From assembly GCF_900129935.1 (NCBI RefSeq), contig NZ_FQXJ01000009.1, forward strand, positions 106,298 through 138,297: DNA of 32,000 nucleotides, given 5' to 3'. The DNA comes from Desulfosporosinus lacus DSM 15449 (lineage in GTDB: Bacteria > Bacillota > Desulfitobacteriia > Desulfitobacteriales > Desulfitobacteriaceae). Position 1 is the first letter of the stretch. Every line of letters begins with the position of its first letter. Below are positions 15,615 to 32,000 of the stretch, piece after piece. Under the pieces are notes generated by a model that saw nothing but the letters and a program-made list of their open reading frames with translations, ran no database searches and was not told the DNA's origin. A program made the translations under genes and the position numbers.

Positions 15615-15650
15615 CTTGCCCCAGAATCAAACGCGCGATTCTGGGGCAAG
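15615..15650 (-). promoter_or_regulatory. GC-rich stem-loop between pilC and pilA (CTTGCCCCAGAATC-N8-GATTCTGGGGCAAG)
   Basis: 14-bp perfect stem with no U-tract after it on the minus strand. It could be an attenuator, a processing site or a stabiliser rather than a canonical terminator. Confidence 0.5.
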
Positions 15651-15713
15651 TCGAGGAGAAGGCTCCCACCCTTGTCGGGATTGCCCAAACATACTAAACT
15701 CCAGGATATTTTT

Positions 15714-15762
15714 CTGACCTCAGGCCTCTGACTTCCGCCTTCTGCCTTCTGATTTCCGGTCT
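15714..15762. repeat. Seven tandem degenerate heptamers (plus strand: CTGACCT CAGGCCT CTGACTT CCGCCTT CTGCCTT CTGATTT CCGGTCT)
   Basis: Read directly. The array abuts the pilC stop codon; on the coding strand it is purine-rich (AAGGCAG-like units). Confidence 0.7.
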
Positions 15763-15763
15763 G

Positions 15764-18012: not shown

Positions 18013-18027
18013 TTCTTCCGTCTCCTC

Positions 18028-19725: not shown

Positions 19726-19729
19726 GCCC

Positions 19730-20113
19730 TCACCAATGCAATTCCTGATAACCCTTAATGACCCAAGTTCCATTAACTAACTCTAACCGCTCCTCAATTC
19801 TTCGAACAGCTAATCCGGAAAGTCCTTTAGACGTCACTTTATACTCCCCTCCACTAAACTCAATTAGGATATCGACCTGCCCAGTATCAAATGACAAACT
19901 CCCTTGCCGCAGTTCCGGATTAACCAGCAAATGGGCTTTAGCCCACTCAATCCCTCCCTCAGCAATGTAGAGGGCTTGTCTGCTTTGAGTTTCACGTTTT
20001 ACCATGCGGTTCTCTGCATTGGCCTTTAGATAGACCTCCATCCCCAGTCCCGAAAACAAGGTTAAAAGCAAGAGAAGGAGAAGGCTCAAATAACCCGATT
20101 GATTTTGCACCAT
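19730..20113 (-). CDS. PilX-like / minor pilus component with an N-terminal hydrophobic anchor
   Basis: From Met71 of the tracked ORF: MVQNQSGYLSLLLLLLLTLFSGLG... The longer tracked N-terminus overlaps the previous gene and looks non-coding. Confidence 0.5.
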   Translation of the reverse strand: MVQNQSGYLSLLLLLLLTLFSGLGMEVYLKANAENRMVKRETQSRQALYIAEGGIEWAKAHLLVNPELRQGSLSFDTGQVDILIEFSGGEYKVTSKGLSGLAVRRIEERLELVNGTWVIKGYQELHW

Positions 20114-20136
20114 TGTTTTGGGAACCCTTCTATTAA

Positions 20137-20664
20137 TCAAAGTACGGAGGGCATTTGTGGTGCAAGTGAATATACCCGTGGTCTGATAAGCGTTTGCCAA
20201 GTGACAATTTGCCCATCCACGTTTGCCTGTAAGAAGATTTCCCACAATCCCGGCTCCACCTCCGCACATTTCCATCCAATCATACAGCTCGCCACCGGTT
20301 GGGGCACTTCTGCATGTCTCCAATAAAGATCTTTCTGTCCATCATGATCTAAATCATCGATAAAATAGGAATCAAGCCTTGGCAGAGGGTTAGAATCATC
20401 TGCTAAGGGTAACACCTTCAATACACCGGGATCTGTCCAGCTTGCAGTTTCGGACATGCGAATTGCATCAGAGACCGTCTTTCCAGCCGTCATGACGGCA
20501 TAATGTGCTTCCAAGTGATTCTTGAGAGCACGTGCTCCACGCCATTGATCCGTAAACAGCCGCATCGCCATCAGCAAGAAAATGCCGGAAATCAATAAAG
20601 CAACCAACACTTCTAAAAGGGTTAAGCCTCGTTCTGAATGATCCGTCCTCCTATTCAACCGCAT
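20137..20664 (-). CDS. Minor pilin (PilW-like) with a prepilin signal
   Basis: MRLNRRTDHSERG/LTLLEVLVALLISGIFLLMAM. GGAGAG SD. 14-nt overlap with the upstream gene. Confidence 0.7.
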   Translation of the reverse strand: MRLNRRTDHSERGLTLLEVLVALLISGIFLLMAMRLFTDQWRGARALKNHLEAHYAVMTAGKTVSDAIRMSETASWTDPGVLKVLPLADDSNPLPRLDSYFIDDLDHDGQKDLYWRHAEVPQPVASCMIGWKCAEVEPGLWEIFLQANVDGQIVTWQTLIRPRVYSLAPQMPSVL

Positions 20665-21073
20665 AAAGGCTCTCCAACTTATATTGATAAGGGTTTCCCC
20701 GTTCCGTCCAAATGACTTCTACACTTACTTTTAATAGTTGGGGGGTGTCATGCCATTCTGAACATATTATCCAACGGAATTTCCCATCTGTTCCTTCTAT
20801 CGCTCCACCTGGGATACAATTTCGGTCAGCGATATTATCTCTCCACTTATGAGCTGCCAAATGATCCATTGTTGCTTGAGCCAGATTAGCACCCTCCATA
20901 AGAGTTGTGGCCCGGCGAGATTCTGAAAGCGCCTCAACTGTCAATTCGAAAAGAACACCAAATCCTAAAGAGAAAAGAAACAGGGCAAATAATACATCAA
21001 ATAAAACATATCCCTTCGCAGTGTCGAAGTTATTGCTTTTTGGGATGCTCCCTTCCCCCCTCCATGGTTTCAC
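20651..21073 (-). CDS. Minor pilin-like protein (PilV/GspI-like) with an atypical Asp at +5
   Basis: ...DTAKG/YVLFDVLFALFLFSLGFGVLF. GTG start with weak SD. Confidence 0.6.
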   Translation of the reverse strand: MKPWRGEGSIPKSNNFDTAKGYVLFDVLFALFLFSLGFGVLFELTVEALSESRRATTLMEGANLAQATMDHLAAHKWRDNIADRNCIPGGAIEGTDGKFRWIICSEWHDTPQLLKVSVEVIWTERGNPYQYKLESLYAVE

Positions 21074-21138
21074 TCACGTTATATCCATTTCCCAATAAAA
21101 AACCATGTCATCTCTTTAAGTGAACGAAGGTTAGACCA

Positions 21139-21492
21139 TTAATTAGCCGAGGAGTTGTTGACTCGCCCCGACGAATCAAGCTGGTAACTCTGCTCAGAGT
21201 TAAAAGGATTGCTTGGAATTTCATTAAGGTAGGGACCTTGCCAATCACTCATGCCCTTCTGAGAATATACCAAATCAGTTACACTGTGCGGATAAGTACC
21301 GACATCAATCTTGTAAAGCTGGGCGGCTCCTTCGATTCTTTGGATGTTGGCCCGATTCATTTGCAAGCGAACATGTTTGGAGGCTGAACCGTAATAAGGG
21401 GTAAATGAGGTTAGTAGAACTCCCATAAGGAAAAGGACAACCAGAACTTCCCATAAGGTGAAACCTGATAGTCGTGACTTGTTATTTCTCAT
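21139..21492 (-). CDS. GspG-like pseudopilin / pilin
   Basis: MRNNKSRLSG/FTLWEVLVVLFLMGVLL...QLYKIDVGTYPHSVTDL...WQGPYL..IPSNPF is the T2SS-G type signature. The tracked start 21549 is a TTG extension. Confidence 0.8.
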   Translation of the reverse strand: MRNNKSRLSGFTLWEVLVVLFLMGVLLTSFTPYYGSASKHVRLQMNRANIQRIEGAAQLYKIDVGTYPHSVTDLVYSQKGMSDWQGPYLNEIPSNPFNSEQSYQLDSSGRVNNSSAN

Positions 21493-21694
21493 CAAGGAAA
21501 TTCTTCTCGGATAATTCACGCTTCTCAATTCTAAACTCACAACTTTCAACTCAATACAAGATTCCTAACACACAATTCTTCTTCTTTCTCTGTCCATTAA
21601 GAAATCCCTTCCTGACTCGACATATCTTTCTCGAAAATACTTTTAGTTACCATTTTCCCCTATTAATTCCATAGCATTACATCGATATGTACTT

Positions 21695-21711: not shown

Positions 21712-21749
21712 AAAATCTGACAAAGATTCTTTAATCCTTGTCAGATTTT
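21712..21749 (-). terminator. Terminator after ubiD (AAAATCTGACAA-N14-TTGTCAGATTTT)
   Basis: 12-bp stem ending in a T-run on the minus strand, about 80 nt past the ubiD stop. The stem is AT-rich. Confidence 0.5.
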
Positions 21750-21829: not shown

Positions 21830-23266
21830 TTAGGCCTTATAACTAAATGCATCCTTAAACCCATACTCATTCCATTTTTCTTTGACCACTTCCAGCACTG
21901 GTTCTGATAAAGTGATATTGGTGGGTTTTTCTTTCCATTCATAGGGAATAGTGCAATCCATGATAATCCTGGAGGTAATGTCCCTGGCTCCGATGGGCAA
22001 AGAGGGATCCAAGGGGGTTGAACGAGCCCTTGAGATAATTTGGCAGCCACGCAAAGGATTCATTCTAGTCGTCATTGCCCAAAGGACACGACCCATATCA
22101 TCAGCTGGAATATCCTCATCGACTACGACAATTACTTTAAATCCGTAGGATCCTGTCGTCGTAGCAATAACCGCATTGCCAACGTGATCTGAATGACCGG
22201 GATACATACATTTTACCGAGACGACGGCCATATATCTTCCGGATGACTCTGGCGGTACATAGACTGATTGGATACCGGGAACTTTCATTTGTTCTAAGTC
22301 AGACCACAATGTCGCAGTGCGGTTCATCGCCTGAATCATGTGGGTATCTGTCACAGGTCTTCCTACCGTTGTAGAATGGAAGATCATATCATTACGATAA
22401 GTGACGGCTTTGACATTAATATAGTGTCTGGGAGTAGTCCCTACGCCCGAATAGTAGCCCGTATATTCTCCGAAGGGTCCTTCTGCTCGTAATTCTTCCG
22501 GCCATAACTCACCCTCAAGAACCATTTCTGCATTCGCTGGGATGGGTAAATCGACATATTCTCCTTTTACCACTTCTACAGCAGAACCACGCAGAGCTCC
22601 AATGTAATTATACTCATCTTCTCCCGCACTAATTGTCGTACTGGAAGCCAGGAACATTAAGGGATCATACCCTATAACGACAGCTACTTGCATAGGTTTA
22701 TTGAGTCCGATATATTTCTTCCGGTGTAAGTCGCCATGTTTTCCTTTGATGAACATGACTCCAACGGTATTTTTATCAAGCATTTGCATCCGGTAAGTAC
22801 CCAGGTTGATCCATCCTGTCTCAGGGTCTTTAGTGATACAAGTGGCAAAGGTCCCAATATATCTGCCGCCGTCCCTTTCATAAAATTTAGGAACCGGGAA
22901 TTTAAATAAATCAACGTCGTCCCCTATATCGATATTTTCCTTAACTGCTCCGGTTGCAACATACACCGGGGGAATCAGGGTCTTGCATCTGTCTACCCAT
23001 GCTCTGGCCATTTGAGTTTGGGTCGTCTCTATAGGCATATTCATAGCAATTGCTAAACGTTTAGTGCTGGATAAGGCACCGACAAATACTTTGCCGCCTT
23101 TATAGTCTTTAACATTTTCAAAAAGTAAGGCCGGACCTGTTTTCTCTTCATTAACTTTGGCAATATGGGATAGTTCGAGATTCCAATCGACCTCATTTTT
23201 AATCCGCAACAGTTCCCCGTTTTTTTCTAGTTCACTGATAAAATCCCGCAAGTTCTCATTTGGCAT
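21830..23266 (-). CDS. UbiD-family prFMN-dependent (de)carboxylase
   Basis: 478 aa: MPNENLRDFISELEKNGELLRIKNEVDWNLE, GEDEYNYIGALRG, AEGPFGEYTGYYSG. These are UbiD metal/prFMN and catalytic Glu motifs. GGGGGA SD. Confidence 0.95.
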   Translation of the reverse strand: MPNENLRDFISELEKNGELLRIKNEVDWNLELSHIAKVNEEKTGPALLFENVKDYKGGKVFVGALSSTKRLAIAMNMPIETTQTQMARAWVDRCKTLIPPVYVATGAVKENIDIGDDVDLFKFPVPKFYERDGGRYIGTFATCITKDPETGWINLGTYRMQMLDKNTVGVMFIKGKHGDLHRKKYIGLNKPMQVAVVIGYDPLMFLASSTTISAGEDEYNYIGALRGSAVEVVKGEYVDLPIPANAEMVLEGELWPEELRAEGPFGEYTGYYSGVGTTPRHYINVKAVTYRNDMIFHSTTVGRPVTDTHMIQAMNRTATLWSDLEQMKVPGIQSVYVPPESSGRYMAVVSVKCMYPGHSDHVGNAVIATTTGSYGFKVIVVVDEDIPADDMGRVLWAMTTRMNPLRGCQIISRARSTPLDPSLPIGARDITSRIIMDCTIPYEWKEKPTNITLSEPVLEVVKEKWNEYGFKDAFSYKA

Positions 23267-23401
23267 ACTATATCCCCCTTTTAATTCTTAATAAGAAGAC
23301 TCTTCGTTACCGCAATTTGACCCTGCTTTACCCTTTCCCTTTAAAACCTCTCTTTGGACGGGTTCCCCTTAAATCTCCTTTGATTCACTTCACCTCCCTT
23401 T

Positions 23402-25054
23402 CTAACTTATCTTTTCTTCTTCCATCTTTGCTGTAATAATTTCCCGCAACCTGCTTTTGTTGACTTTAGAATCGGAAGCAAGTGGGAAAGTATCCACGAT
23501 CTCTAAGTGCTCAGGAAGTTTGTATTTAGCAAGTTTCTTTTCATTGAGGAAATTGACCATTTCCTCAAAAGTCAATACCCCCTCCTTATTATTAGGGATA
23601 ACAAAGGCGCAAGCCTTTTCACCCATAATCTTATCGGGCATAGCAACGATCGCTACATTAGATACCTTTGAATGGGCCATCAAAATGTTTTCTATTTCGC
23701 CGGGATAAATATTTTGCCCCCCGCGGATAATGATATCTTTCTTTCGGCCAACGATCATAATAAATCCGTCGTCGTCTATTTTAGCTAAATCTCCGGGAGA
23801 GGCCCAACCCTCGCTGTCATAAGCCTCGGCAAAGGTTTTTACCGGGTCACGGTAGTAACCGCCCGAATTCTGGGCACCACGGAAATACAATTGTCCAACT
23901 TCACCCTGTGGTAATACATTGCCATCATCATCGACGATTCTTATTTGATTGCCCGGCAAGGGTTTCCCGACGGTGGTGCGGCGCTTTTCAGCAGAATCAT
24001 TGATATTAATCCCCGTAACAGAACCCGTATCTTGAGAACCATAGGTACTTATTATTGGGCCATTGAATCGCTGTTCTACTTCTTCCGCAAGTGTAGGGGA
24101 AAGATAACCTCCCGCGCTGCGTATAGCCCGAATTGAGCTTAAGTCATATTTCTCTAATGATTCTTGCATAATCATGGCCAACTGAGCAGGTACTACGCAG
24201 GGAATTGTTACTTTTTCCTTCTCAAAAAACTCCAGGGCATTTTGGGCACTGTAGTCATAGAGCAATACTATCTTGGCAGCTGCTTGGGGAGCACAGAAGT
24301 AAGTTGGAGTACCACCGGCAGCGCCAGCCGCCGGGGCAACGGCACAGAGCACATCCTTAGGGCTCAGTTTCCAGTTCCTTACATGAGTTTTAGAACTCCA
24401 AAGGCGTGCAGCTATGGAATATTCAACAACTTTAGGCACCCCGGTCGTTCCGGTAGTAGTGCTTAAGAAGCCCACATGGGTCGGATCAAATCGTCTCTTA
24501 GTCAGGTAGTCCACAGGATATTTTTCTTCTAAAGGATCATTTACAATATCTTCAAAGGAAATTACCCCTTTAGGAACATCCTCACCGATTACGATGATAT
24601 TTTTAAGTAGTGGCAGTTGTTCCTTTAGTTCTTGATACATTTCATAATAGTCAAAGTTTCTATACGAGCGGGAGATAATGACAGTCGTTGCTTCAATCAA
24701 GGAAATTATTTCTTGACATTCTTTGTGACGCAAGGTGTGCATTAAGGTCATTGAAACAATTCCCGCTTTTTCACAAGCAACCCTGGCGATAAACCCTTCT
24801 ACACAATTGGGCAAATGAACCACTACCCTGGCATCTTGAGGAATACCTAATTCGATAAAAGCTAAAGCAAGCCGATCGCTTTGCTTTTTTGCTTGAAGCC
24901 AGGTTAAACGAGTTCCTTTGGAATCAACCAAAGCCTCTTTATTGGGAAACTCCTTAGCGTTTCTATCCCAGAAATCCGAAAAAACTTCATTCGTCCAATA
25001 CCCTTTGGCAGTAAATTCCTCTACTTCTGCTTTGCTGTACCTAACAGGAATCAT
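23402..25054 (-). CDS. Aryl-acid adenylating enzyme / aryl-CoA ligase (ANL superfamily, DhbE/EntE-like clade)
   Basis: 550 aa. The N-terminus YSKAEVEEFTAKGYWTNEVFSDFWDRNAKEFPNKEALVD resembles 2,3-dihydroxybenzoate-AMP ligases. A3 motif STTTGTTGVPK, and a C-terminal Lys in SKVNKSRL. The start overlaps the upstream stop (ATGA). Confidence 0.88.
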   Translation of the reverse strand: MIPVRYSKAEVEEFTAKGYWTNEVFSDFWDRNAKEFPNKEALVDSKGTRLTWLQAKKQSDRLALAFIELGIPQDARVVVHLPNCVEGFIARVACEKAGIVSMTLMHTLRHKECQEIISLIEATTVIISRSYRNFDYYEMYQELKEQLPLLKNIIVIGEDVPKGVISFEDIVNDPLEEKYPVDYLTKRRFDPTHVGFLSTTTGTTGVPKVVEYSIAARLWSSKTHVRNWKLSPKDVLCAVAPAAGAAGGTPTYFCAPQAAAKIVLLYDYSAQNALEFFEKEKVTIPCVVPAQLAMIMQESLEKYDLSSIRAIRSAGGYLSPTLAEEVEQRFNGPIISTYGSQDTGSVTGININDSAEKRRTTVGKPLPGNQIRIVDDDGNVLPQGEVGQLYFRGAQNSGGYYRDPVKTFAEAYDSEGWASPGDLAKIDDDGFIMIVGRKKDIIIRGGQNIYPGEIENILMAHSKVSNVAIVAMPDKIMGEKACAFVIPNNKEGVLTFEEMVNFLNEKKLAKYKLPEHLEIVDTFPLASDSKVNKSRLREIITAKMEEEKIS

Positions 25055-26319
25055 TGATTAATTCCTCCTTCATAAATAGGTTCTGCTTCAAAAACAGGTT
25101 TTACCAAGTCCTTAAACGCCTTAATAACGGCCTCCCCAAACTCCGGTTCATCAATATTAGCGTCAACCTCAATCACTTCGATATGCTCAGCAGCCAGCTC
25201 TTTGAAAACTTTTACAAAAATCAAATCACTTTCCGGTTCAAAGATAGCAGTACCTGCTTTATCGAAAGAGGCCCAGCCTTTCAACGGAATCAAGAACTTT
25301 ACGGGACCGCAGGCTGCATTTAGTTTTTCGGCCATTGCCCGCGCTACTACTCTTAATTCATCCGAGTTAAGACGCAAGAAAGTGCGCAAGGCATCGAGAT
25401 CATACTTTTTTCGTTCGTAATAATCAGGCTTATATTTACTCCGTGGAGGAGTCATTAAATTTACAGCACAGGGCGCGATAATCTGGGGAATACCGATTTT
25501 GCCGGCAGCTTCAAGTCGTTTTTTCCCTGCCGATCTGGTTCCGCCAAAAATTTCCTCCCCTACTCCGCCAGGTGCCAAATCAATAACAGCTTTGAACATG
25601 CCCTCTCCACTCATCATCTCCTCCATAGCCTTATCGGCTACCCCGGTTGCAGAAAAGCCGATAATCTGATACCCTTCCACCTCCAAACGGTTGCGTACAA
25701 AATTGGCAGTTTCTTCACATAAGCTCAGTTGGGTCATAGCTATATAATCCTTAGGTCTTTCCTCTTTTCCCGGTACTTTCTTCTCCGATTTTTGGGTCAT
25801 ACCCACAATTGCGCCTGCCGCCTGATCTAAGATATCTCTTATTAAGTCGTTTAAGCCTGTAAAATCAATAACCGAGTGAAAGATAGTAATATCAGAGGTT
25901 CCAAAGTAACGGCTTGCTAACCCCTGTGAAGCGGCAACACTGCTAACCATAGATTTAGGAACACCGAAAGGTAACGTTCTCATTATGTTCGTGACTAAGA
26001 GACTGTTCGTGGCACCGCCGATCCCAATGACGCCCTGAATCTTCCCCTCAGCATAGAGTCTTTTAAGCTTGGCAGAAGCACCGGCAGTAATGATTTCGGC
26101 AAGTCGAACGCGGTTCTCTGTGGAAAAGACTGTTTCAGCCGGATTGCCAAGGGCAAAAATTTCTTCACGTGTAACGTCTGCCGGCATCCCCGGCTGTCCT
26201 CTGGTTCCTAAATCAAAAATAATTGTTCGGCAATTTCTTGCTTCGATTTGCTTTTTTAGATAATTAGTTTCGGCGGCCTTAGTATCCAAGGTACAAAGGA
26301 TAGCGATTGTCTTGCTCAT
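25051..26319 (-). CDS. UPF0261 family protein (Tm-1-like ATP-binding domain), paralog 1
   Basis: 422 aa: MSKTIAILCTLDTKAAETNYLKKQIE...GVIGIGGATNS...FGVPKSMVSSVAS...DITIFHSV.D..GLN. AGGAGG SD. Confidence 0.85.
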   Translation of the reverse strand: MSKTIAILCTLDTKAAETNYLKKQIEARNCRTIIFDLGTRGQPGMPADVTREEIFALGNPAETVFSTENRVRLAEIITAGASAKLKRLYAEGKIQGVIGIGGATNSLLVTNIMRTLPFGVPKSMVSSVAASQGLASRYFGTSDITIFHSVIDFTGLNDLIRDILDQAAGAIVGMTQKSEKKVPGKEERPKDYIAMTQLSLCEETANFVRNRLEVEGYQIIGFSATGVADKAMEEMMSGEGMFKAVIDLAPGGVGEEIFGGTRSAGKKRLEAAGKIGIPQIIAPCAVNLMTPPRSKYKPDYYERKKYDLDALRTFLRLNSDELRVVARAMAEKLNAACGPVKFLIPLKGWASFDKAGTAIFEPESDLIFVKVFKELAAEHIEVIEVDANIDEPEFGEAVIKAFKDLVKPVFEAEPIYEGGINQ

Positions 26320-26429
26320 TAAATCCTCCTTTGAACAGTTTTTGTAATATTCTAAATCTTATGTTATCAGACAAATAATTCTATAACTATTCTCATATTG
26401 GGTAAAAATCTTGCGAATATCTTAGCTAC

Positions 26430-26455
26430 TTTAGTCGTACGTGCTCACCCCTTGG
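26430..26455. promoter_or_regulatory. Candidate operator site A (TTTAGTCGTACGTGCTCACCCCTTGG)
   Basis: It shares TTTAG-N3-TAC-N5-CACCCCTTGG, including an exact 10-mer, with site B at 29047-29072. It lies 110-135 bp upstream of the UPF0261-ligase-ubiD operon. Confidence 0.45.
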
Positions 26456-26499
26456 TACCTTTCATCCTGCGGTCGCCTCTTAATAATTAGCGTCTATTC

Positions 26500-26523
26500 T
26501 TAGGGGTACTGCTCTGTACCCCT
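26500..26523. promoter_or_regulatory. Candidate operator site C / hairpin (TTAGGGGTAC-TGCTCT-GTACCCCT)
   Basis: Perfect 8-bp inverted repeat of the same half-site as sites A and B. It lies 30 bp after the regulator stop, so it could equally be that gene's terminator. Confidence 0.4.
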
Positions 26524-26553
26524 GTTTGTATTGTTCAAAATTCAGCGCTGCAC

Positions 26554-28902
26554 TCAATTGATAAGTTTTAGGGCTAACTGTATCTGCAACCCCACATCGG
26601 GATCATCCATATCAATTCCCGCTATCTCCTCTATCCTCTTCAAACGGTATTTCATGGTGCTGTGATTGAGAAAACCTTCTCTTGCGGCCTTTAAGATATT
26701 GCCATTATTTCGATAATAAAGTTCCAACATGCTTACTAACTGAGCATTATGTTTCCGGTCGTAATCAATTAAGGGGCGGAGTACCCGGTTTGCAAATCTT
26801 GCGAACCTTTCCTTATTGATTTCCAACAGCGCAAACACCCCCAGACGCTCATAGGACATCATCCGGTTTTCCTGGTTCAGGCTTTTCATGATCTCCAAAG
26901 TACTGGTGGCTTGCCAGTATGATTCCTTAAATTCGTCAAAACGATGGCAGTTCCCACCTAGGGCCAACCACCAGACAGTCTCACCAGGTTGTTCGCTTAA
27001 TTCTTTCTCAATTGCTTTGGCCAAGGGATTGTTCTTCTCACACACATTTAAAGCGGCTAACACAAGGATATAGCGGTTGCTGATGACAATACTCCCGGGG
27101 GATTCCCGCTGGACTGCCTCTTTCACCAATTCATAAATGCGCCGTTTGGCAGACGACCCTGGGTATGAAGCTTCTCTGCTTTCCACATCGATAATAAACA
27201 CTTGATAGGTATCTGCAAATACAAACCCCAACTGGGCTGAGCGGTGATAGGCTGCCTCTTCAGATTCGTAGTTGCCTGCTATCAAATCTTCAATGAAATC
27301 TTCTCTTTGGCGCATTTCCACTGCCAAGGCTGCTTTTTGCTTCAGTAATTCAAGAGCAAAGACCCTTCCCGCCTGCTCCATGGCAATATAGTCCAACTCA
27401 AACAGCCTTTTTTCCTTTTCCAGCGCTGACACATACCCAAAAACTTCCTTACCGGCAACAATGGGCACGATTATCTGCCGCCTTCCCCCAGAGTCTGTCT
27501 CAAGAGTAACCAGACGCTTATCATTCACGAGGGCCTGCATTTCCTGTCGATACCGCGGGACTTTCATCAGATGCCCAATTGAGAGAAATCCATTTTCCAG
27601 CTCGGTATTCCCTCCGGATGCTGAAATCAGTCTGAAATTTTCATCCTCCACCCACACATGGCAGTTGATTAACTCTGCCAGTGTCCGGGCGATCGCCTCC
27701 AGTCCCTGACACTCCAGGACCAATTGGGTTAACTGGGTGTGAATATCGCTGGACTTCTTGAGCTTAGCGTGCTGAGCAGTAAGGACATTGTTAAGTTGGT
27801 TAAGCTGAAGCACTTTTTCCTGTAGTTCTTCGTCTGTTCTTTCATATACACGGGCATTTTGGATCGCTATCGCCGCTTGTGCTCCAAGAATTTGCAACAG
27901 TTCCTGATCTTCATGGTTGAAAACCCGGTTGCCCGGTTTTTTAACCACTACCATGGCACCAATCATAGACCCTTTGAAATAAAGAGGTACTCCGAGGGAA
28001 TCTTCCTGTACCACAATGGCCCGTCCTGTCTTGAGCACAGGAGTAAGAAGCTCGCCGGGATCATTTGTAATCTCCGACCACACTTCCGCTTCCTCGGTCC
28101 TGTACACGAGAAATTGGCCATCTTCCATAACAAGGGCCATGCAAGAGGCCTGTGCAAAGAACATTTTCGCGGCGTACTGGATAAACCTCCTTGGCAGTTT
28201 ATCCGAATCGTAATTAGTGGTGATTTCTACTGCAGCCTCGTTTAAGCCTCTCCACTGCACAACTCGCTCCCTTTCCTCGGTCACCATTTTTTGCAGGCTT
28301 TTAAGCACTGAACTAGGCCGCAAGTCTTCAATATACCTTGCCGCCTCTCTGCCCCAGGCTTCCAGCGGACGTAATTCCCATTTACAGTGTTGGTCTCCTT
28401 TGGCACCGCACATGGTCTCCACAGATACAATTTCCCGTCCCATAAACCCACTGGCATAACCGCTGGCATATCCGGATACCGTCCAACAGACTGCTTCCGT
28501 GGCTTGACCATAAAGTTTAAGATGTTGCTCTACTTCATTCGAATTATGCCATTCCCCTCGCATGAGGAAAGTCCCCTCAGCGCGGTTAAATTCTAAATGA
28601 TCACATTTGACATGGGCCGAACCCTCGATGGTATGGATCATTGGCCCTGCCAACATCCACTCGGCATCAGTCTCAAAATTGAACATATTCTTTACGCTCA
28701 TGACATCAGCATAACCACAACGGTACCCAAAGCGGGTAAGAACCCCCCGGGCATTGTCCTCCCCCAGTGACTCAATCAATTCCTGTCGCAGTTGTCCAAG
28801 GGCGTCTGCATTGAACAACAGCATTCGGTTGCCCCGAAAGGTCATTGTTCCCCTCTCTCTGTCGAGGGTGAGAAAATTCTCAAAATCAAACACTGGTTTC
28901 AT
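26554..28902 (-). CDS. Hybrid transcriptional regulator: XylR_N + V4R aromatic-sensor module, GAF domain, PucR-type C-terminal HTH
   Basis: N-terminus: MTFRGNRMLLFNADALGQLRQELIESLGEDNARGVLTRFGYRCGYADV (XylR_N-like). EAVCWTVSGYASGYASGFMGREIVSVETMCGAKGDQHCKWELRP is V4R-like. Middle: GAF-like. C-terminus: FLNHSTMKYRLKRIEEIAGIDMDDPDVGLQIQLALKL (PucR HTH). There is no AAA+/sigma54 module. ATG 28902 follows GGGGGG; the tracked TTG 29001 extension has no SD. Confidence 0.85.
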   Translation of the reverse strand: MKPVFDFENFLTLDRERGTMTFRGNRMLLFNADALGQLRQELIESLGEDNARGVLTRFGYRCGYADVMSVKNMFNFETDAEWMLAGPMIHTIEGSAHVKCDHLEFNRAEGTFLMRGEWHNSNEVEQHLKLYGQATEAVCWTVSGYASGYASGFMGREIVSVETMCGAKGDQHCKWELRPLEAWGREAARYIEDLRPSSVLKSLQKMVTEERERVVQWRGLNEAAVEITTNYDSDKLPRRFIQYAAKMFFAQASCMALVMEDGQFLVYRTEEAEVWSEITNDPGELLTPVLKTGRAIVVQEDSLGVPLYFKGSMIGAMVVVKKPGNRVFNHEDQELLQILGAQAAIAIQNARVYERTDEELQEKVLQLNQLNNVLTAQHAKLKKSSDIHTQLTQLVLECQGLEAIARTLAELINCHVWVEDENFRLISASGGNTELENGFLSIGHLMKVPRYRQEMQALVNDKRLVTLETDSGGRRQIIVPIVAGKEVFGYVSALEKEKRLFELDYIAMEQAGRVFALELLKQKAALAVEMRQREDFIEDLIAGNYESEEAAYHRSAQLGFVFADTYQVFIIDVESREASYPGSSAKRRIYELVKEAVQRESPGSIVISNRYILVLAALNVCEKNNPLAKAIEKELSEQPGETVWWLALGGNCHRFDEFKESYWQATSTLEIMKSLNQENRMMSYERLGVFALLEINKERFARFANRVLRPLIDYDRKHNAQLVSMLELYYRNNGNILKAAREGFLNHSTMKYRLKRIEEIAGIDMDDPDVGLQIQLALKLIN

Positions 28903-29036
28903 TTGCGGCCCCCCAATATTAATTACTTTTTTTAACTCATCCATTCGTATAAACCAACGCAAATGAGAGTGGAGTGGGACTCTGGACTCAGTTCCCCTCA
29001 AGCGGGTTTGTACAAATTAATGAATTTGTTTTAAAA

Positions 29037-29130
29037 TTTTCCCCAATTTAGGGATACTAAGGCACCCCTTGGGAAATTGACAAAATTGTCAAAGAGTTTT
29101 TCCTCACTTTAGGAATAGTAAGGCAAAACC
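29037..29130. promoter_or_regulatory. Divergent control region: two ~28-bp direct repeats (29037-29064 and 29098-25) carrying operator-like sites B and D, flanking the inverted repeat TTGACAA-AA-TTGTCAA (29077-29092)
   Basis: TTTTCCCCAATTTAGGGATACTAAGGCA versus TTTTCCTCACTTTAGGAATAGTAAGGCA: 24 of 28 identical, 61 bp apart. Site B continues into CACCCCTTGG. Confidence 0.5.
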
Positions 29131-29268
29131 AATCATGCTAACATTTAATTATAGTCTGAAAGTTCAGAATATACAGGCTTGTTAAGTTAAAATGTACCAC
29201 TCTTCAGGTCAAAAGCCACTTTTTATAGAGGGCAAAGATTAAAAAACTTGAGAAAAGGAGTAATTATC

Positions 29269-30513
29269 ATGAAAAATATTTTGATCGTAGCTTGTCTGGA
29301 CACCAAGAGTACAGAGGTTCTTTTTTTAAAAGAAAGAATTGAAACCTTCGGAGCCAAAACAATTATCATCGATGCCGGAATCTTGGGAGAGCCCCTTTTT
29401 CCGCCGGATTTTACACGAGCGGATGTAGCGGAAATGGCTGGTACGACCCTGGAAAAGGTCAGAAAAATCCCCTCCGAAGGCCAGGCCATGGATATTCAAA
29501 TCAAAGGCGCTATTGGCATAGCACAGAAACTGCACAGTGAAGGTAAGGTACATGGAATCCTGGGTATAGGAGGGGCCATGGGTACCGGCCTGGGAACAGC
29601 GGTAATGAGCTCTTTTCCTATCGGAATTCCGAAAGTTATGATTTCTACTGTGGCTGGGGTCGGTAATTTAGTAGGAGTCTTCGTCGGAACTAAGGACATT
29701 AACATGTTTCACTCGGTGGCGGATGTAGCCGGACTGAACCGGTTGACCCGAACTATTTTCTCCAATGCAGCGGGAGCGGTTGTGGGCATGGCAAATGCCG
29801 GTGTTGATAAACTTGAAAATAGAAGGCTGGTTGCCGTTTCAACCCTTGGCACTACGGAACATGCTGCCGAAAGAACAAGGGCACTGCTTGAGCTGGCCGG
29901 TTATGAATCCGTGACTTTCCACACAACAGGTGTTGGCGGTCGAAGCCTGGAGCACTCGATAATAGATGGATTGGTTGACGGAGGGGTAATAGAGTATTCT
30001 CTACATGAATATATCGATCGGATAGCAGGGGGGCTATACCAGGCTTCTGATGATCGATACGAAAACGCCGGCCTTATGTCTCTACCTCAGGTATATGTTC
30101 CCGGTTCTACTGATTTTATTGTTGAGGGGCATGGTAAGGAGAAGTACCAGGGTCGTAAAACTCATATGCATAATCAGGCCATCATGTTGTACCGAACCAG
30201 CCCGGTTGAAATGAAACAGTTGGGAGAGGAAATCGGTCAGAAGCTGAGTAGGAGCAAATCTCCGGTTACGGTTGTAATTCCAATGCGAGGCTTTAGTGTC
30301 CACGACCGAGAAGGCGGTCCACTCTGGGAACCCGAGGCACTTTTGGAGTTTGCTAAGGGCATTGAGAGTAAGGCCAATACCATGCTCAAAGTCAAGAGAG
30401 TGGATGCTCATGTTCTCGAAGAAAGATTCATTCAGGAAGCTTTGGACTCATTCCTGGAAAACGCTAAAATTGTTGACACTATGGCTGCGATTGACGTTAG
30501 ATCAGCCGGATAG
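29269..30513 (+). CDS. UPF0261 family protein (Tm-1-like ATP-binding domain), paralog 2
   Basis: MKNILIVACLDTKSTEVLFLKERIE...GILGIGGAMGT...IGIPKVMISTVAG...DINMFHSVADVAGLN is collinear with paralog 1. ATG 29269 follows AAAGGAG; the tracked 29248 is a TTG extension. Confidence 0.85.
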   Translation: MKNILIVACLDTKSTEVLFLKERIETFGAKTIIIDAGILGEPLFPPDFTRADVAEMAGTTLEKVRKIPSEGQAMDIQIKGAIGIAQKLHSEGKVHGILGIGGAMGTGLGTAVMSSFPIGIPKVMISTVAGVGNLVGVFVGTKDINMFHSVADVAGLNRLTRTIFSNAAGAVVGMANAGVDKLENRRLVAVSTLGTTEHAAERTRALLELAGYESVTFHTTGVGGRSLEHSIIDGLVDGGVIEYSLHEYIDRIAGGLYQASDDRYENAGLMSLPQVYVPGSTDFIVEGHGKEKYQGRKTHMHNQAIMLYRTSPVEMKQLGEEIGQKLSRSKSPVTVVIPMRGFSVHDREGGPLWEPEALLEFAKGIESKANTMLKVKRVDAHVLEERFIQEALDSFLENAKIVDTMAAIDVRSAG

Positions 30514-30537
30514 TGTTATCCCACAGCAAGGGTTCCT

Positions 30538-30559
30538 AAGAGGAGGGTTTCCTCCTCTT
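30538..30559 (+). terminator. Intrinsic terminator of UPF0261 paralog 2
   Basis: AAGAGGAGG-GTTT-CCTCCTCTT followed by TTCCTGCTTT, 25 nt after the stop. Confidence 0.8.
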
Positions 30560-30774
30560 TTCCTGCTTTACAAAGCTTAAGCTCTGTGACAGTCTGGGCA
30601 GGAATTTGTAATTCATCCTTGACACTCCTTTCAGAATCCGGGCTATTATTTTTGAATATTTAGAACTTTCTAAAACCTTACCATATATTGAAAGAAGGTT
30701 ACTATCCCCATAATAGTTAAAAAACCTATTCGAGAATTTGTACAATTTGGCTAAAATTTATTCGAGAGTGAATT

Positions 30775-30832
30775 TATATGGCAAGAGCCGCCTTTACGTT
30801 CAATTGAAACGCAGGGCGGCTCTTGCCATATA
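30775..30832 (-). terminator. Long hairpin after ubiX (18-bp perfect stem TATATGGCAAGAGCCGCC / GGCGGCTCTTGCCATATA, 22-nt loop containing TTCAATTGAA)
   Basis: Read directly. It lies 32 nt past the ubiX stop with no clear U-tract. Confidence 0.5.
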
Positions 30833-30863
30833 ACTGAACAACCTTTCTCAAGGGTTGTTCTTC

Positions 30864-31448
30864 TTACATTGTCCGCAGTTTCTGCCGAGTTCCTCCGCCC
30901 TCCCAGCGTTTAAACAATTGGTGACTGACGTCAAATTGGTCCAGGGCCTTGCCCACAGTCTGATTGATGATATCATCGATTGTCTTAGGCATGTGGTAAT
31001 AGGCGGGCATAGGCGGGAGAATGACTGCACCCATTTCCGCCACAGCCGTCAGTAACTTAAGATGTCCAATATGAAGAGGGGTCTCACGAGGGATAACTAC
31101 CAGTTTCCTTCTTTCCTTCAGCACTACATCAGCCGCTCGTACCAAAAGCGAGTCGTTATAGGAATTGGCTAAAGCTGAAAGGCTCTTAATGGCACAGGGT
31201 GCTATGAGCATTCCGTCCGTTTTAAACGAACCACTGGAGATGGAAGCTCCTATGTCCCTGTTATCGTAGACATAGTCCGCTAAGTTCTCCACTTCCTTCA
31301 CACTAAAATTTGTCTCCGTTTCAATAGTTCTTTTGGCGCTATCCGTCAAAACAAGATGGGATTCTATTTGGCAAGCCCCTAAAGTCTGCAACATTCGAAT
31401 GCCGTAGATGGCGCCGGTGGCACCGGATATACCCACAATCAACTTCAT
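30864..31448 (-). CDS. ubiX: Flavin prenyltransferase UbiX (prFMN synthase)
   Basis: 194 aa: MKLIVGISGATGAIYGIRML...LVLTDSAK...PCAIKSLSALANSYNDSLL.RAADV.LKERRKLV. The GGAGGGA SD lies inside the end of ribK. Confidence 0.95.
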   Translation of the reverse strand: MKLIVGISGATGAIYGIRMLQTLGACQIESHLVLTDSAKRTIETETNFSVKEVENLADYVYDNRDIGASISSGSFKTDGMLIAPCAIKSLSALANSYNDSLLVRAADVVLKERRKLVVIPRETPLHIGHLKLLTAVAEMGAVILPPMPAYYHMPKTIDDIINQTVGKALDQFDVSHQLFKRWEGGGTRQKLRTM

Positions 31449-31450
31449 TC

Positions 31451-31855
31451 TTATCCCTCCACTTCACTTTTCTTGAATGTTAAAGTAACTACATCCCCGT
31501 CTACAATGTTTAAGGTGTCTTTAATGCATACCGGCGCCACTATTTCGATTCTTCCAATCGGGTGTTTGGTTTTTCCTGGCATCACAACCGCACCTACAAG
31601 TTGATCATTGATCAAGGTCTCGTAACAGATGGCCGAGCAAGACGTTTTATTTCTCGGCTCGATGAACACCCCGCCAGTCTGACCAAAGCTCACTAAACTA
31701 TCCCAATCAAGTTCAATCATATCTACATTTAAAGTGCCGGGGTAGGGTACAAACCCCAGCTTATTTAAGAATTGCTCAACCACCCAATCAAGCTGGGTAA
31801 AATATTTACCTTCCTTAAAACCACTTGAAACTGTACCCTGCAACTTTATTTCCAT
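31451..31855 (-). CDS. ribK: CTP-dependent riboflavin kinase, archaeal type (DUF120/RibK family)
   Basis: 134 aa: GTVSSGFKEGKYFTQL.W...F...LGF.PYPGTLNV...GAVVMPGKTKHPIGRIEIVAPV.IKD.LNIVDGDVVTL. It is collinear with my recollection of the Methanocaldococcus MJ0056-type enzyme. Confidence 0.8.
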   Translation of the reverse strand: MEIKLQGTVSSGFKEGKYFTQLDWVVEQFLNKLGFVPYPGTLNVDMIELDWDSLVSFGQTGGVFIEPRNKTSCSAICYETLINDQLVGAVVMPGKTKHPIGRIEIVAPVCIKDTLNIVDGDVVTLTFKKSEVEG

Positions 31856-31891
31856 TCCCGAACACCTGCCTATTTAGAGTTGTATCCCTCT

Positions 31892-32000
31892 TCATTCCTC
31901 AATTACCTCGACAACCCCATTAGTGCCATCAATTCGAATGCGTTGACCTGTCCTAATGTGTTCAGTAACCCTAACCCCCCGAGTAATGGTACCTACCACC
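31892..32000 (-). CDS. 3' end of a PEP-utilising-enzyme family protein (mobile His-swivel domain C-terminus); the rest lies beyond the right edge
   Basis: My translation is VVGTITRGVRVTEHIRTGQRIRIDGTNGVVEVIEE*. This matches the ...VVG....AT..I..G..V.VDG..G.V ending of PF00391-type domains. Only 36 aa are visible. Confidence 0.55.
   Translation of the reverse strand, partial: VVGTITRGVRVTEHIRTGQRIRIDGTNGVVEVIEE

What the first reader, a model, noticed from the sequence alone, without database searches (positions are those of the whole stretch)
21830..32000. UbiD/UbiX plus aryl-CoA ligase locus built around two UPF0261 proteins and an aromatic-sensor regulator: candidate undescribed anaerobic aromatic-activation system
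Seen in the sequence, minus strand: PEP-utilising enzyme (3' end only), then CTP-type riboflavin kinase, then UbiX, then a hairpin. Next comes a convergent, monocistronic UPF0261 paralog on the plus strand, then the XylR_N/V4R-GAF-PucR regulator. Then UPF0261 paralog 1, joined by an ATGA overlap to a DhbE/EntE-like aryl-acid ligase, followed by UbiD and a terminator. Established knowledge: UbiD enzymes are prFMN-dependent reversible (de)carboxylases and UbiX makes prFMN. UbiD-like plus aryl-CoA ligase plus UbiX gene sets mark anaerobic benzene/naphthalene carboxylation (AbcDA-BzlA-UbiX in a Peptococcaceae enrichment). They also mark phthaloyl- and isophthaloyl-CoA decarboxylation. Combined with PEP-synthase-like kinases, they mark the route phenol to phenylphosphate to 4-hydroxybenzoate. 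Inference: this is a compact, substrate-inducible module with its own cofactor supply. It either (phosphorylates and) carboxylates an aromatic and thioesterifies the product, or thioesterifies and decarboxylates an aromatic diacid. The UPF0261 pair and the regulator type do not, to my knowledge, appear in any described version of these pathways. That is why I rank this the most promising new biology in the window.
Basis: partly seen in the sequence, partly recalled or inferred. Interest (0 to 1): 0.82.

Follow-up and report, generated by a model that had tools for sequence, protein, structure and literature searches.

The report
Anaerobic phenol-carboxylation cluster with orphan kinases
This part of a Desulfosporosinus lacus genome is a version of the gene cluster that strictly anaerobic bacteria use to add CO2 to phenol-like compounds, and it carries two conserved kinase-like proteins (UPF0261) whose role in that reaction has not been explained.

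Summary
The organism is Desulfosporosinus lacus. The UbiD passes NCBI's curated model for phenylphosphate carboxylase beta subunit (PpcB). The regulator's sensor domain keeps all phenol-binding and zinc-binding residues of MopR.

The locus is not an isolated novelty. It is a rearranged member of the pps–ppcB–ubiX phenol cluster of strict anaerobes, seen in D. gibsoniae and in the D. anilini phe cluster. Of 44 species-representative PpcB-like loci with both flanks available, 43 carry a UPF0261 gene. The same regulator type sits in the D. gibsoniae cluster. In published D. anilini proteomics the UPF0261 protein (02057) and the DhbE-like ligase (02058) are phenol-induced, but neither has an assigned function.

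A 2025 paper showed that one UPF0261 protein, MarK, is an ATP-dependent phenolic kinase. The plus-strand paralog here keeps MarK's substrate residues. The ligase-coupled paralog belongs to a distinct subfamily (type L) that lacks them and was found with the DhbE-like ligase in 34 of 34 loci.

Verdict: a known kind of system with a conserved component that has gone unnoticed. This type of carboxylase has not been demonstrated in vitro with phenylphosphate, and the conserved partners now give a concrete set of proteins to test.

The parts
31892..32000 (-). 3' end (last 35 codons plus stop) of a 588-aa PpsA-like PEP-utilizers protein. It resembles the phenylphosphate synthase alpha subunit and its phospho-His motif (GGMLAHAAI) is present.
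   Evidence: Contig extension L001:3777-5543. PF00391 E 5e-22. PRK08296-type 294 bits, below cut-off. The C-terminus matches the window.
31451..31855 (-). CTP-dependent-type riboflavin kinase, giving a local FMN supply.
   Evidence: PF01982 E 4e-28. NCBIfam ribK_Meth scores 74 bits against a cut-off of 168.
30864..31448 (-). UbiX flavin prenyltransferase, which makes prFMN for the UbiD.
   Evidence: NF004685 268.6 bits against a cut-off of 188; PF02441 E 7e-41.
30774..30833 (.). Long hairpin closing the PpsA-like/RFK/UbiX transcription unit. It has no U-tract.
   Evidence: -42.3 kcal/mol, z = -8.6. Inverted repeat I1.
30538..30565 (+). Terminator-like hairpin plus U-run after the plus-strand UPF0261 gene.
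   Evidence: -19 kcal/mol, z = -2.7.
29269..30513 (+). UPF0261 paralog 2 ('type M', MarK-like), a candidate ATP-dependent phenolic-OH kinase. Monocistronic.
   Evidence: 35% identity to MarK, E 1e-77. It keeps D-T-K and MarK residues G195, T196, H219, F283, H304 and H348, with I285 changed to V.
29037..29125 (.). Two 28-nt direct repeats flanking the palindrome TTGACAAAATTGTCAA, in the divergent promoter region between the regulator and UPF0261-M. Candidate operator.
   Evidence: Zero matches in 100 shuffles. Found only in D. lacus-like contigs.
26554..28902 (-). Transcription regulator: a MopR/DmpR-like phenol-sensor domain (XylR_N + V4R) fused to GAF, GGDEF_2 and a PucR HTH.
   Evidence: Pfam. 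E 7e-33 to the MopR sensor 5KBE. MopR H106, W134, C155, E178, C181 and C189 are all conserved, as H90, W118, C139, E162, C165 and C173 here.
26502..26523 (-). GC-rich hairpin after the regulator gene, upstream of the UPF0261-L operon.
   Evidence: -14.1 kcal/mol, z = -5.4.
25051..26319 (-). UPF0261 paralog 1 ('type L', ligase-coupled). It keeps the ATP-site D-T-K but lacks MarK's histidine substrate pocket. Role unknown.
   Evidence: Pfam. Residue comparison. Type L occurs with the DhbE-like ligase in 34 of 34 loci. 33% identical to paralog 2.
23402..25054 (-). DhbE/EntE-like ANL aryl-acid ligase. Its start overlaps the UPF0261-L stop (ATGA).
21830..23266 (-). PpcB-type UbiD (de)carboxylase. 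Catalytic R159, E262 and E267 and metal ligands N154, H177 and E218 are present.
   Evidence: TIGR02724 510.7 bits against a cut-off of 468.95. 100% identical to a D. lacus protein that NCBI names 'phenylphosphate carboxylase subunit beta'. 57% identity to the D. gibsoniae cluster UbiD. Motifs.
21712..21749 (-). Intrinsic terminator after UbiD: a 17-bp stem followed by UUUUCCUUAUU.
   Evidence: -23.5 kcal/mol, z = -5.7.

Best explanation
The locus is the Desulfosporosinus lacus version of the strict-anaerobe phenol (phenolic compound) activation and carboxylation cluster, the pps–ppcB–ubiX type. The proposed steps follow, each marked as shown or inferred.

1. A phenolic effector binds the MopR-like sensor of the XylR_N/V4R–GAF–PucR regulator, which switches on the flanking operons. 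Sensor homology and ligand residues are shown; regulation is inferred.
2. The phenolic OH is phosphorylated by the MarK-like UPF0261 paralog (29269-30513; ATP to ADP), by the PpsA-like dikinase component, or by both. This is inferred from homology.
3. The aryl phosphate or phenolate is para-carboxylated by the single PpcB-type UbiD. Its prFMN comes from the adjacent UbiX, fed by the local riboflavin kinase, type-2 IPP isomerase and PNPOx. Family assignment is shown; the chemistry is inferred.
4. The hydroxy-aryl acid is adenylated and thioesterified by the DhbE-like ligase, which also pulls the unfavourable carboxylation forward. This is inferred.
5. The ligase-coupled UPF0261 paralog (25051-26319) is an obligatory conserved partner of the UbiD/ligase core. 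Most likely it handles a phosphorylated or otherwise anionic intermediate. Its reaction is unknown.
For: **Family assignments**
- The UbiD exceeds the curated PpcB equivalog cut-off, while the PpcA, VdcC, UbiD and MqnL models all fall below theirs.
- The window ends in a 588-aa PpsA-like gene with an intact phospho-His motif.
- The regulator sensor matches MopR, PoxR and CapR (E 7e-33 to 2.5e-30) with all phenol-anchoring and zinc residues conserved.

**Synteny with cultured organisms**
- D. gibsoniae, a phenol degrader: regulator, PpsA, PpsB, UbiD, UPF0261, ligase, UbiX, HD (PMC4148979).
- Paradesulfitobacterium aromaticivorans: the same set followed by HcrCBA-like genes.

**Conservation across 80 species-representative loci**
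- 51 of 58 loci with at least 3.5 kb downstream have UPF0261 within 6 kb downstream of the UbiD.
- 43 of 44 loci with both flanks have UPF0261, and 39 of 44 have PpsA, PpsB and UPF0261 together.

**Published proteomics in D. anilini (PMC7500099 Table S1)**
- Areas are given in the order 4-aminobenzoate / aniline / benzoate / phenol.
- UPF0261 02057: 0 / 5e7 / 5e7 / 2.5e9.
- Ligase 02058: about 7e8 on the first three, 1.3e10 on phenol.
- PpcB 02059: about 1e9 on the first three, 1.8e10 on phenol.
- In the ani cluster, UPF0261 03869 and ligase 03870 are induced on aniline and 4-aminobenzoate.

**UPF0261 function**
- MarK shows that a UPF0261 protein can be an ATP-to-ADP phenolic kinase (PMC12624787).
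- Paralog 2 keeps MarK's pocket.
Against: - No PpsB (PPDK_N) gene lies in the roughly 16 kb locus. Whether one exists elsewhere in the genome is unknown.
- No 4-hydroxybenzoyl-CoA reductase or benzoyl-CoA reductase genes are adjacent, unlike in close relatives.
- I found no report of D. lacus growing on phenolics.
- Phenylphosphate carboxylase activity of this cluster type was not detected in D. anilini extracts (PMC6114531), so the carboxylation step is itself unproven.
- Recombinant D. anilini PpcB-type proteins carboxylated phenylphosphoamidate without UPF0261 (PMC7500099), so UPF0261 may not be essential for catalysis.
- The actual substrate is not determined. It could be phenol, a substituted phenol or an aniline.
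Confidence: 0.75

Rival explanations
1. The architecture is the same but the substrate is not a phenol. One example is aniline, activated through phenylphosphoamidate and carboxylated to 4-aminobenzoate, as in the D. anilini ani cluster. Another substituted aromatic is also possible.
For: The D. anilini ani cluster has the same UPF0261 (03869), 549-aa ligase (03870) and PpcB-type UbiD (03872) arrangement, and these are induced on aniline and 4-aminobenzoate.
Against: The regulator keeps the MopR residues that bond the phenolic OH, H106 and W134. The closest cultured relatives carry 4-hydroxybenzoyl-CoA-reductase-like genes next to the cluster.
Confidence: 0.1
2. The module runs in the decarboxylating direction. 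It would be a non-oxidative hydroxyarylic-acid decarboxylase of the VdcBCD/ShdBCD type, removing phenolic acids for detoxification or energy.
For: UbiD enzymes are reversible. The VdcC model gives 342 bits and the VdcB model 249 bits. No downstream benzoyl-CoA pathway genes are adjacent.
Against: The VdcC score is far below its cut-off of 650, while the PpcB model passes. There is no VdcD/LpdD-type small subunit in the locus. A PpsA-like phosphotransfer protein, an aryl-acid ligase and two ATP-binding UPF0261 proteins have no role in simple decarboxylation.
Confidence: 0.07
3. The locus is a partly decayed or reshuffled remnant of a phenol cluster that no longer supports a complete pathway in D. 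lacus.
For: PpsB is missing from the locus. A close relative contig (L008) has only a 213-aa PPDK_N fragment next to its D. lacus-like gene set. The gene order is rearranged compared with D. gibsoniae and P. aromaticivorans. No downstream pathway genes are adjacent.
Against: All eight genes have intact full-length reading frames with conserved catalytic motifs. Translational coupling and terminators are intact. Identical loci recur in several independent metagenomes.
Confidence: 0.08
4. The locus carboxylates an unsubstituted arene (an AbcDA-type benzene or naphthalene carboxylase with an aryl-CoA ligase), or decarboxylates an aryl-diacid CoA ester (phthaloyl-CoA decarboxylase type).
For: The UbiD-like + ligase + UbiX gene set superficially resembles abcDA-bzlA-ubiX and the phthalate clusters.
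Against: The UbiD passes the PpcB equivalog model, whereas the PpcA-type model scores 241 against a cut-off of 565. Phthaloyl-CoA decarboxylase matches at only 55 bits. There is no second carboxylase subunit or AbcD-like gene. The regulator has a phenol-type pocket. A PpsA-like gene is present.
Confidence: 0.03

Closest known systems
Desulfatiglans anilini phenol ('phe') cluster H567DRAFT_02049-02059 (PMC6114531, PMC7500099)
   Same: It has a single PpcB-type UbiD (02059), a DhbE-like ligase (02058), a UPF0261 protein (02057), UbiX (02056) and PpsA/PpsB. All are phenol-induced in proteomics. The Desulfatiglandaceae locus L030 shows the same order.
   Different: D. anilini has PpsB, a CheY-like receiver and HCR genes in the cluster, and a different regulator. 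The D. lacus locus has no PpsB. It adds a MarK-like UPF0261 paralog, a riboflavin kinase, Idi2 and PNPOx, and uses a XylR_N–GAF–PucR regulator.
Desulfoscipio (Desulfotomaculum) gibsoniae phenol cluster (PMC4148979; locus L091)
   Same: It carries a XylR_N/V4R–PucR regulator, PpsA, a PpcB-type UbiD (57% identity), a type L UPF0261 (59% identity), an ANL ligase and UbiX.
   Different: D. gibsoniae has PpsB, a canonical 612-aa PpsA and an HD protein, all in one direction. Its regulator lacks the GAF domain. It has no MarK-like paralog and no riboflavin kinase.
Thauera aromatica phenylphosphate synthase PpsABC plus phenylphosphate carboxylase PpcABCD (biochemistry recalled from general knowledge and as summarised in PMC6114531)
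   Same: The logic is the same: phosphorylate phenol, para-carboxylate with a UbiD-family enzyme, then form the CoA ester. PpcB and PpsA homologs are present.
   Different: The D. lacus locus has no PpcA, PpcC or PpcD and no PpsB or PpsC. UPF0261 proteins and a DhbE-like ligase are present instead.
MarK (Saro_1862) of Novosphingobium aromaticivorans, PDB 9MPY (PMC12624787)
   Same: It shares the UPF0261 two-domain fold and the ATP-site D-T-K. Paralog 2 keeps the aromatic pocket (G195, T196, H219, F283, H304, H348) at 35% identity.
   Different: MarK works with a biotin-dependent acetovanillone carboxylase in an aerobe. Here the partners are a prFMN UbiD carboxylase and an ANL ligase in a strict anaerobe. 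Paralog 1 lacks the histidine pocket.
MopR/DmpR/PoxR phenol-responsive regulators
   Same: The sensor domain has the same fold, with conserved phenol-OH anchors and a conserved zinc site.
   Different: The output is GAF–GGDEF_2–PucR HTH instead of a sigma-54 AAA+ activator module.

Membership tests
PpcB (phenylphosphate carboxylase beta subunit, NCBIfam TIGR02724 equivalog) | Whole-protein score above the curated cut-off | tested here: met
   510.7 bits against a cut-off of 468.95. PpcA scores 240.8 against 564.6 and VdcC 342.4 against 650, so both fail.
PpcB / UbiD family | Three UbiD domains, the catalytic Glu-Arg-Glu and the metal ligands for prFMN | tested here: met
   UbiD_N, UbiD and UbiD_C are present. 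R159, E262 and E267 in EGPFGEYTGYY, plus N154, H177 and E218, are present and mostly invariant in alignment A1. The mapping to Fdc1 R173/E277/E282 is from memory.
PpcB | Demonstrated carboxylation of phenylphosphate | not testable with these tools
   This needs enzymology. It was not detected even for the D. anilini ortholog (PMC6114531).
Thauera-type four-subunit phenylphosphate carboxylase (PpcABCD) | A second UbiD paralog (PpcA) plus the gamma and delta (phosphatase) subunits encoded together | tested here: not met
   The locus has only one UbiD. Every ORF of at least 80 aa is assigned to another family. Clustering of unassigned ORFs across 80+ loci found no recurrent PpcC/D-like family. 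ORFs under 70 aa were not examined.
Strict-anaerobe pps–ppcB cluster (G. metallireducens, D. anilini, D. gibsoniae type) | A single ppcB with ubiX and ppsA in one cluster | tested here: met
Strict-anaerobe pps–ppcB cluster | ppsB (PPDK_N ATP-grasp subunit) adjacent to ppsA | tested here: not met
   There is no PPDK_N ORF in L001 or the window. It is present in 48 of 58 related loci. Whether one exists elsewhere in the D. lacus genome is unresolved.
Strict-anaerobe pps–ppcB cluster | A DhbE-like ligase and UPF0261 next to ppcB | tested here: met
   Window 23402-26319. Type L occurs with the ligase in 34 of 34 loci. UPF0261 is present in 43 of 44 loci.
MarK-type UPF0261 aromatic kinase | UPF0261 N and C domains and the ATP-site D14-T15-K16 | tested here: met
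   Both paralogs meet this.
MarK-type UPF0261 aromatic kinase | Aromatic pocket G195, T196, H219, F283, I285, H304, H348 | tested here: met
   Paralog 2 (29269-30513) has G, T, H, F, V, H, H.
MarK-type UPF0261 aromatic kinase | The same aromatic pocket, in paralog 1 (25051-26319) | tested here: not met
   It has S, L, S, L, T, L, F at those positions. The type L subfamily instead has invariant R72, R166, D225, R257, N282, D305, R308 and W345.
MarK-type UPF0261 aromatic kinase | ATP-dependent phosphorylation of a phenolic OH | not testable with these tools
   This needs a kinase assay.
DhbE/EntE aryl-acid adenylating enzymes | Score above the equivalog cut-off, and an aryl-carrier-protein partner | tested here: not met
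   TIGR02275 scores 319.8 against a cut-off of 723.55. No carrier protein is in the locus. The best PDB hits are still DhbE, EntE and salicylate-AMP ligases, so it is DhbE-like but not an ortholog.
UbiX flavin prenyltransferase | Score above the curated cut-off | tested here: met
   NF004685 scores 268.6 against 188, and TIGR00421 scores 242.6 against 108.9.
MopR/DmpR/XylR phenol-sensing regulators | XylR_N + V4R sensor with the phenol-OH anchors (H106, W134) and the zinc site (C155, E178, C181, C189) | tested here: met
   All six residues are conserved. Residue roles are recalled from the MopR structural literature.
MopR/DmpR/XylR phenol-sensing regulators | Sigma-54 AAA+ activator output domain | tested here: not met
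   The output is GAF, GGDEF_2 and PucR HTH_30.
Phthaloyl-CoA decarboxylase | Close sequence relationship to Pcd | tested here: not met
   55 bits to 8OZ5/8PMK, compared with 279 bits to the best solved UbiD and more than 580 bits to PpcB-like proteins.
AbcDA benzene carboxylase | An AbcA-clade UbiD plus an AbcD partner | tested here: inconclusive
   No second carboxylase subunit gene is present. No AbcA reference sequence was available for a phylogeny. The PpcB model passing and the PpcA-type model failing argue against membership.

The most novel reading that the evidence does not exclude
The conserved non-MarK UPF0261 subfamilies are the missing partner of the single-subunit PpcB carboxylase of strict anaerobes. 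These are type L, always paired with the DhbE-like ligase, and type D, always directly after the UbiD and never found with that ligase. In this reading they replace PpcA, PpcC and PpcD by binding the anionic aryl phosphate and carrying out nucleotide-dependent phosphoryl transfer during carboxylation. If the acceptor were ADP, part of the ATP invested would be recovered. That would explain why assays containing only phenylphosphate and CO2 have failed, and how sulfate reducers can afford the pathway.
Probability: 0.2. Interest if true: 0.85.

Novelty: new variant of a known kind. Interest (0 to 1): 0.6.

Why it matters
Phenol carboxylation in strict anaerobes has been an open problem since 2009. 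Their clusters contain only a PpcB homolog. The carboxylase activity was not detected in extracts, and the authors of the D. anilini study themselves asked how a sulfate reducer can pay up to four ATP equivalents (PMC6114531).

This analysis shows that UPF0261 proteins are near-universal members of these clusters across Bacillota, Chloroflexota, Desulfobacterota and Burkholderiales. They fall into discrete subfamilies, and two of those subfamilies are mutually exclusive. One subfamily is rigidly tied to a DhbE-like ligase whose function is explicitly called unknown in the literature.

Since 2025, one UPF0261 protein is known to be an ATP-dependent phenolic kinase. Together these facts turn a vague gap into a defined reconstitution experiment with three or four proteins. 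The result would matter for anaerobic bioremediation and for using prFMN enzymes to fix CO2 onto aromatics.

Tried and rejected
- **Promoter/terminator consensus scan.** It gave counts no higher than shuffled sequence, so I used individual hairpin folds instead.
- **Literature.** No paper links Tm-1-like/UPF0261 proteins with UbiD. The key Geobacter (PMC2698347) and Thauera (PMC438602) papers are not held. I therefore could not check whether those clusters list a UPF0261 ORF.
- **The 370-aa ORF upstream of the PpsA-like gene.** I considered it as a divergent PpsB and rejected that. It is a polytopic membrane protein with no Pfam, NCBIfam or PDB match.
- **PpsB elsewhere in D. lacus.** A search of homologs of a related PpsB found none named D. 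lacus among the top 120, but names are sparse, so the result is inconclusive.
- **The 28-nt repeat and palindrome as a shared operator.** They are absent upstream of the other operons and from orthologous loci.
- **Clustering of unassigned ORFs across loci.** Most clusters were alternative-frame artefacts. The real recurrent extras were a CheY-like receiver, HCR subunits and a CBS protein, with no PpcC/D analog.
- **UPF0261 fusions.** None of the top 120 type L homologs is fused to an AMP-binding or UbiD domain.
- **An apparent UbiD–UPF0261 fusion in L090.** This is an artefact of long ORFs in a high-GC genome.
- **UbiD phylogeny against AbcA, PpcA and PpcB references.** I could not build one because no reference sequences were obtainable. 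Curated HMM cut-offs were used instead.

Full report
**Observation**

On the minus strand the order is:
- the tail of a PEP-utilizers protein (31892-32000)
- a CTP-type riboflavin kinase (31451-31855)
- UbiX (30864-31448)
- a 60-nt hairpin (30774-30833; -42 kcal/mol, z = -8.6)

A convergent, monocistronic UPF0261 gene lies on the plus strand (29269-30513) with its own terminator-like hairpin.

The minus strand then continues with:
- the XylR_N–V4R–GAF–GGDEF_2–PucR regulator (26554-28902; public gene calls start it at the ATG at 28902, giving 782 aa)
- a second UPF0261 gene (25051-26319), whose TGA overlaps the ATG of a DhbE-like ANL ligase (23402-25054)
- UbiD (21830-23266)
- an intrinsic terminator (21712-21749; z = -5.7)

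**Origin and extension**

The UbiD is 100% identical to a Desulfosporosinus lacus protein that NCBI names 'phenylphosphate carboxylase subunit beta'. Identical contigs from several metagenomes extend the locus past the window end. Those contigs show that:
- the truncated gene is a 588-aa PpsA-like protein (PRK08296 type) whose C-terminal PEP-utilizers domain has an intact phospho-histidine motif
- it is preceded by a 370-aa polytopic membrane protein with no family match, a PNPOx-type flavoprotein and a type-2 IPP isomerase

FMN synthesis, a DMAPP source and prenylation are all encoded locally. No PPDK_N (PpsB-type) gene lies in this roughly 16 kb region.

**What the UbiD is**

It exceeds the curated equivalog cut-off for PpcB (510.7 against 468.95). 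It fails the cut-offs for PpcA, VdcC, UbiD proper, the menaquinone decarboxylase and BagN. Solved UbiD structures are distant: the best scores 279 bits and phthaloyl-CoA decarboxylase only 55 bits. Hundreds of PpcB-annotated proteins from Desulfobacterota, Chloroflexota and Bacillota score 580-880 bits. The catalytic Arg and two Glu, and the metal ligands, are present. This excludes the aryl-diacid-CoA decarboxylase reading and makes the benzene-carboxylase reading unlikely.

**What the regulator senses**

Its N-terminal 200 residues match the crystallised phenol-sensor domains of MopR, PoxR and CapR (E 7e-33 to 2.5e-30). In the alignment, the two residues that anchor the phenolic hydroxyl in MopR (H106, W134) and the four zinc ligands (C155, E178, C181, C189) are all conserved. 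The residue roles are recalled from the MopR structural work. The output module is GAF–GGDEF_2–PucR rather than a sigma-54 ATPase. A regulator with the same XylR_N–V4R sensor and PucR output (lacking only the GAF domain) heads the D. gibsoniae phenol cluster, and the full architecture heads the P. aromaticivorans cluster. It is therefore not new to these pathways.

**Neighbourhood survey**

I fetched the loci of the closest UbiD relatives and 80 species-representative genome loci. I then scored their six-frame ORFs with the window proteins. The order PpsA, PpsB, UbiD, [ligase], UPF0261, [LpdD-like], UbiX recurs across phyla. The counts are:

| Loci considered | Result |
|---|---|
| 58 with at least 3.5 kb downstream of the UbiD | 51 have UPF0261 within 6 kb downstream |
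| 44 with both flanks | 43 have UPF0261 |
| 44 with both flanks | 39 have PpsA, PpsB and UPF0261 together |

Every type L homolog whose context I looked up sits in the same setting: D. gibsoniae, P. aromaticivorans, an Ardenticatenaceae genome, a JGI contig and a BRH_c37-like contig.

**Link to experiment**

In D. anilini the phenol-induced cluster H567DRAFT_02049-02059 contains ppcB (02059) and a '2,3-dihydroxybenzoate-AMP ligase' (02058). The authors state that the ligase's function is unknown. The cluster also contains UbiX (02056) and ppsAB. Phenylphosphate carboxylase activity could not be detected. The authors concluded that sulfate and iron reducers use a different catalytic mechanism, and they noted the unexplained energy cost (PMC6114531).

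The proteome table of the follow-up paper lists these proteins (PMC7500099):

| Protein | 4-aminobenzoate | Aniline | Benzoate | Phenol |
|---|---|---|---|---|
| 02057, 'Uncharacterized protein, UPF0261 family' | 0 | 5.0e7 | 5.3e7 | 2.5e9 |
| 03869, a second UPF0261 protein | 5.4e9 | 6.5e8 | 0 | 0 |
| 03870, a 549-aa acyl-CoA synthetase adjacent to 03869 | 2.6e10 | 2.3e10 | 1.1e8 | 8.3e7 |

02057 is thus induced in parallel with 02058 and 02059, and 03869 and 03870 are induced on aniline and 4-aminobenzoate. The main text of neither paper discusses UPF0261.

**UPF0261 function and subfamilies**

A 2025 study showed that MarK, a UPF0261 protein, phosphorylates phenolic hydroxyls using ATP and releasing ADP. 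It also defined the substrate pocket (PMC12624787).

- **Type M (MarK-like).** The plus-strand paralog is 35% identical to MarK. It keeps the ATP-site D-T-K and every pocket residue, with I285 changed to V.
- **Type L (ligase-coupled).** The other paralog is only 33% identical to the first. It keeps D-T-K but has S, L, S, L, T, L, F in place of the pocket residues.
- **Across the fetched loci, four recurrent types emerge.** Type M is MarK-like. Type L is next to the ligase. Type D comes directly after the UbiD, with the ATP-site lysine replaced by arginine. Type Y lies upstream of PpsA.
- **Types L and D are mutually exclusive.** Type L occurs with the DhbE-like ligase in 34 of 34 loci, type D in 0 of 18, and the two never co-occur.
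- **Type L has its own invariant residues.** In 158 sequences these are R72, R166, S219, D225, R257, N282, D305, R308 and W345 in MarK numbering. Several of them are shared with type D. This hints at an anionic ligand, but that is inference only.

**Most likely mechanism**

1. A phenolic compound is sensed by the regulator.
2. It is phosphorylated by the MarK-like paralog, the PpsA-like protein, or both.
3. It is para-carboxylated by the prFMN-dependent PpcB-type UbiD.
4. The acid is trapped as a CoA ester by the DhbE-like ligase.

The type L protein is an obligatory but unassigned partner. The family assignments, synteny and cross-species conservation are shown. The reaction steps are inferred.

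The main weaknesses are:
- the absence of PpsB and of downstream reductase genes from the locus
- the lack of any phenotype data for D. lacus
- the report that recombinant D. anilini PpcB-type proteins carboxylate phenylphosphoamidate without UPF0261

**Verdict**

This is the phosphorylate–carboxylate–thioesterify route, but it is not an undescribed system. It is a variant member of the strict-anaerobe phenol cluster. What is new is the recognition that UPF0261 proteins, in defined subfamilies, and the DhbE-like ligase are core conserved parts of that cluster. These components have no assigned role in a pathway whose key step has not been demonstrated in vitro with phenylphosphate.

Noticed in passing
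window 29037-29125: Two 28-nt direct repeats (86% identical, 61 bp apart) flank a perfect 16-bp palindrome, TTGACAAAATTGTCAA. They lie in the divergent region between the regulator and the MarK-like UPF0261 gene and could be an operator. They were absent from 100 shuffles and occur only in D. lacus-like contigs.
   Followed up: partly
L001:2249-3361 (just beyond the window's right end): A 370-aa highly hydrophobic polytopic membrane protein with no Pfam, NCBIfam or PDB match. Homologs sit beside pps genes in L008, L075 and L089, so it may be a transporter for the aromatic substrate.
   Followed up: partly
L001:3-836 and L001:1099-1614: A type-2 IPP isomerase and a PNPOx-family flavoprotein lie upstream of the PpsA-like gene. 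With the riboflavin kinase and UbiX they form an unusually complete local prFMN supply set. A similar Idi2 + PNPOx pair follows the UbiD in L008.
   Followed up: partly
L011-L090 (for example L050:11187-12110): A single-domain CheY-like receiver ORF lies between the UbiD and the ligase in about 51 loci. Its D. anilini counterpart 02050 is phenol-induced (6.0e9 against about 1e9). It is absent from the D. lacus locus.
   Followed up: no
L008 and L096: A Desulfosporosinus BRH_c37-like contig carries two UbiD/UPF0261 sets. One is D. lacus-like, with only a 213-aa PPDK_N fragment. The other is complete, with PpsAB and benzoyl-CoA-reductase/dehydratase-type genes downstream.
   Followed up: partly
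L009, L014, L026 and about 19 loci in total: An LpdD_chaperone-like small protein (PF21758) often sits between UPF0261 and UbiX. HD-domain or NUDIX hydrolases are also frequent and may make DMAP for UbiX. None is present in the D. lacus locus.
   Followed up: no
window 6431-11143 (-): A 1570-aa RHS-repeat protein lies in a block with higher GC (0.49-0.50) than its left flank (0.38). It may be a horizontally acquired toxin-type gene.
   Followed up: no
window 12126-21549 (-): A type IV pilus / type II secretion-like gene set abuts the UbiD terminator. It includes a T2SSE ATPase (16966-18012), a further 581-aa ORF upstream (18028-19773) that looks like a second secretion ATPase but was not scanned, T2SSF (15764-16969), a prepilin peptidase (14121-14909) and apparent pseudopilin ORFs (20137-21549; the 133-aa ORF next to UbiD carries T2SSG).
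   Followed up: no
window 26502-26523: A GC-rich 8-bp-stem hairpin (z = -5.4) lies just after the regulator stop and has no U-tract on the coding strand. It could be a weak terminator or a regulatory element upstream of the UPF0261-L operon.
   Followed up: no
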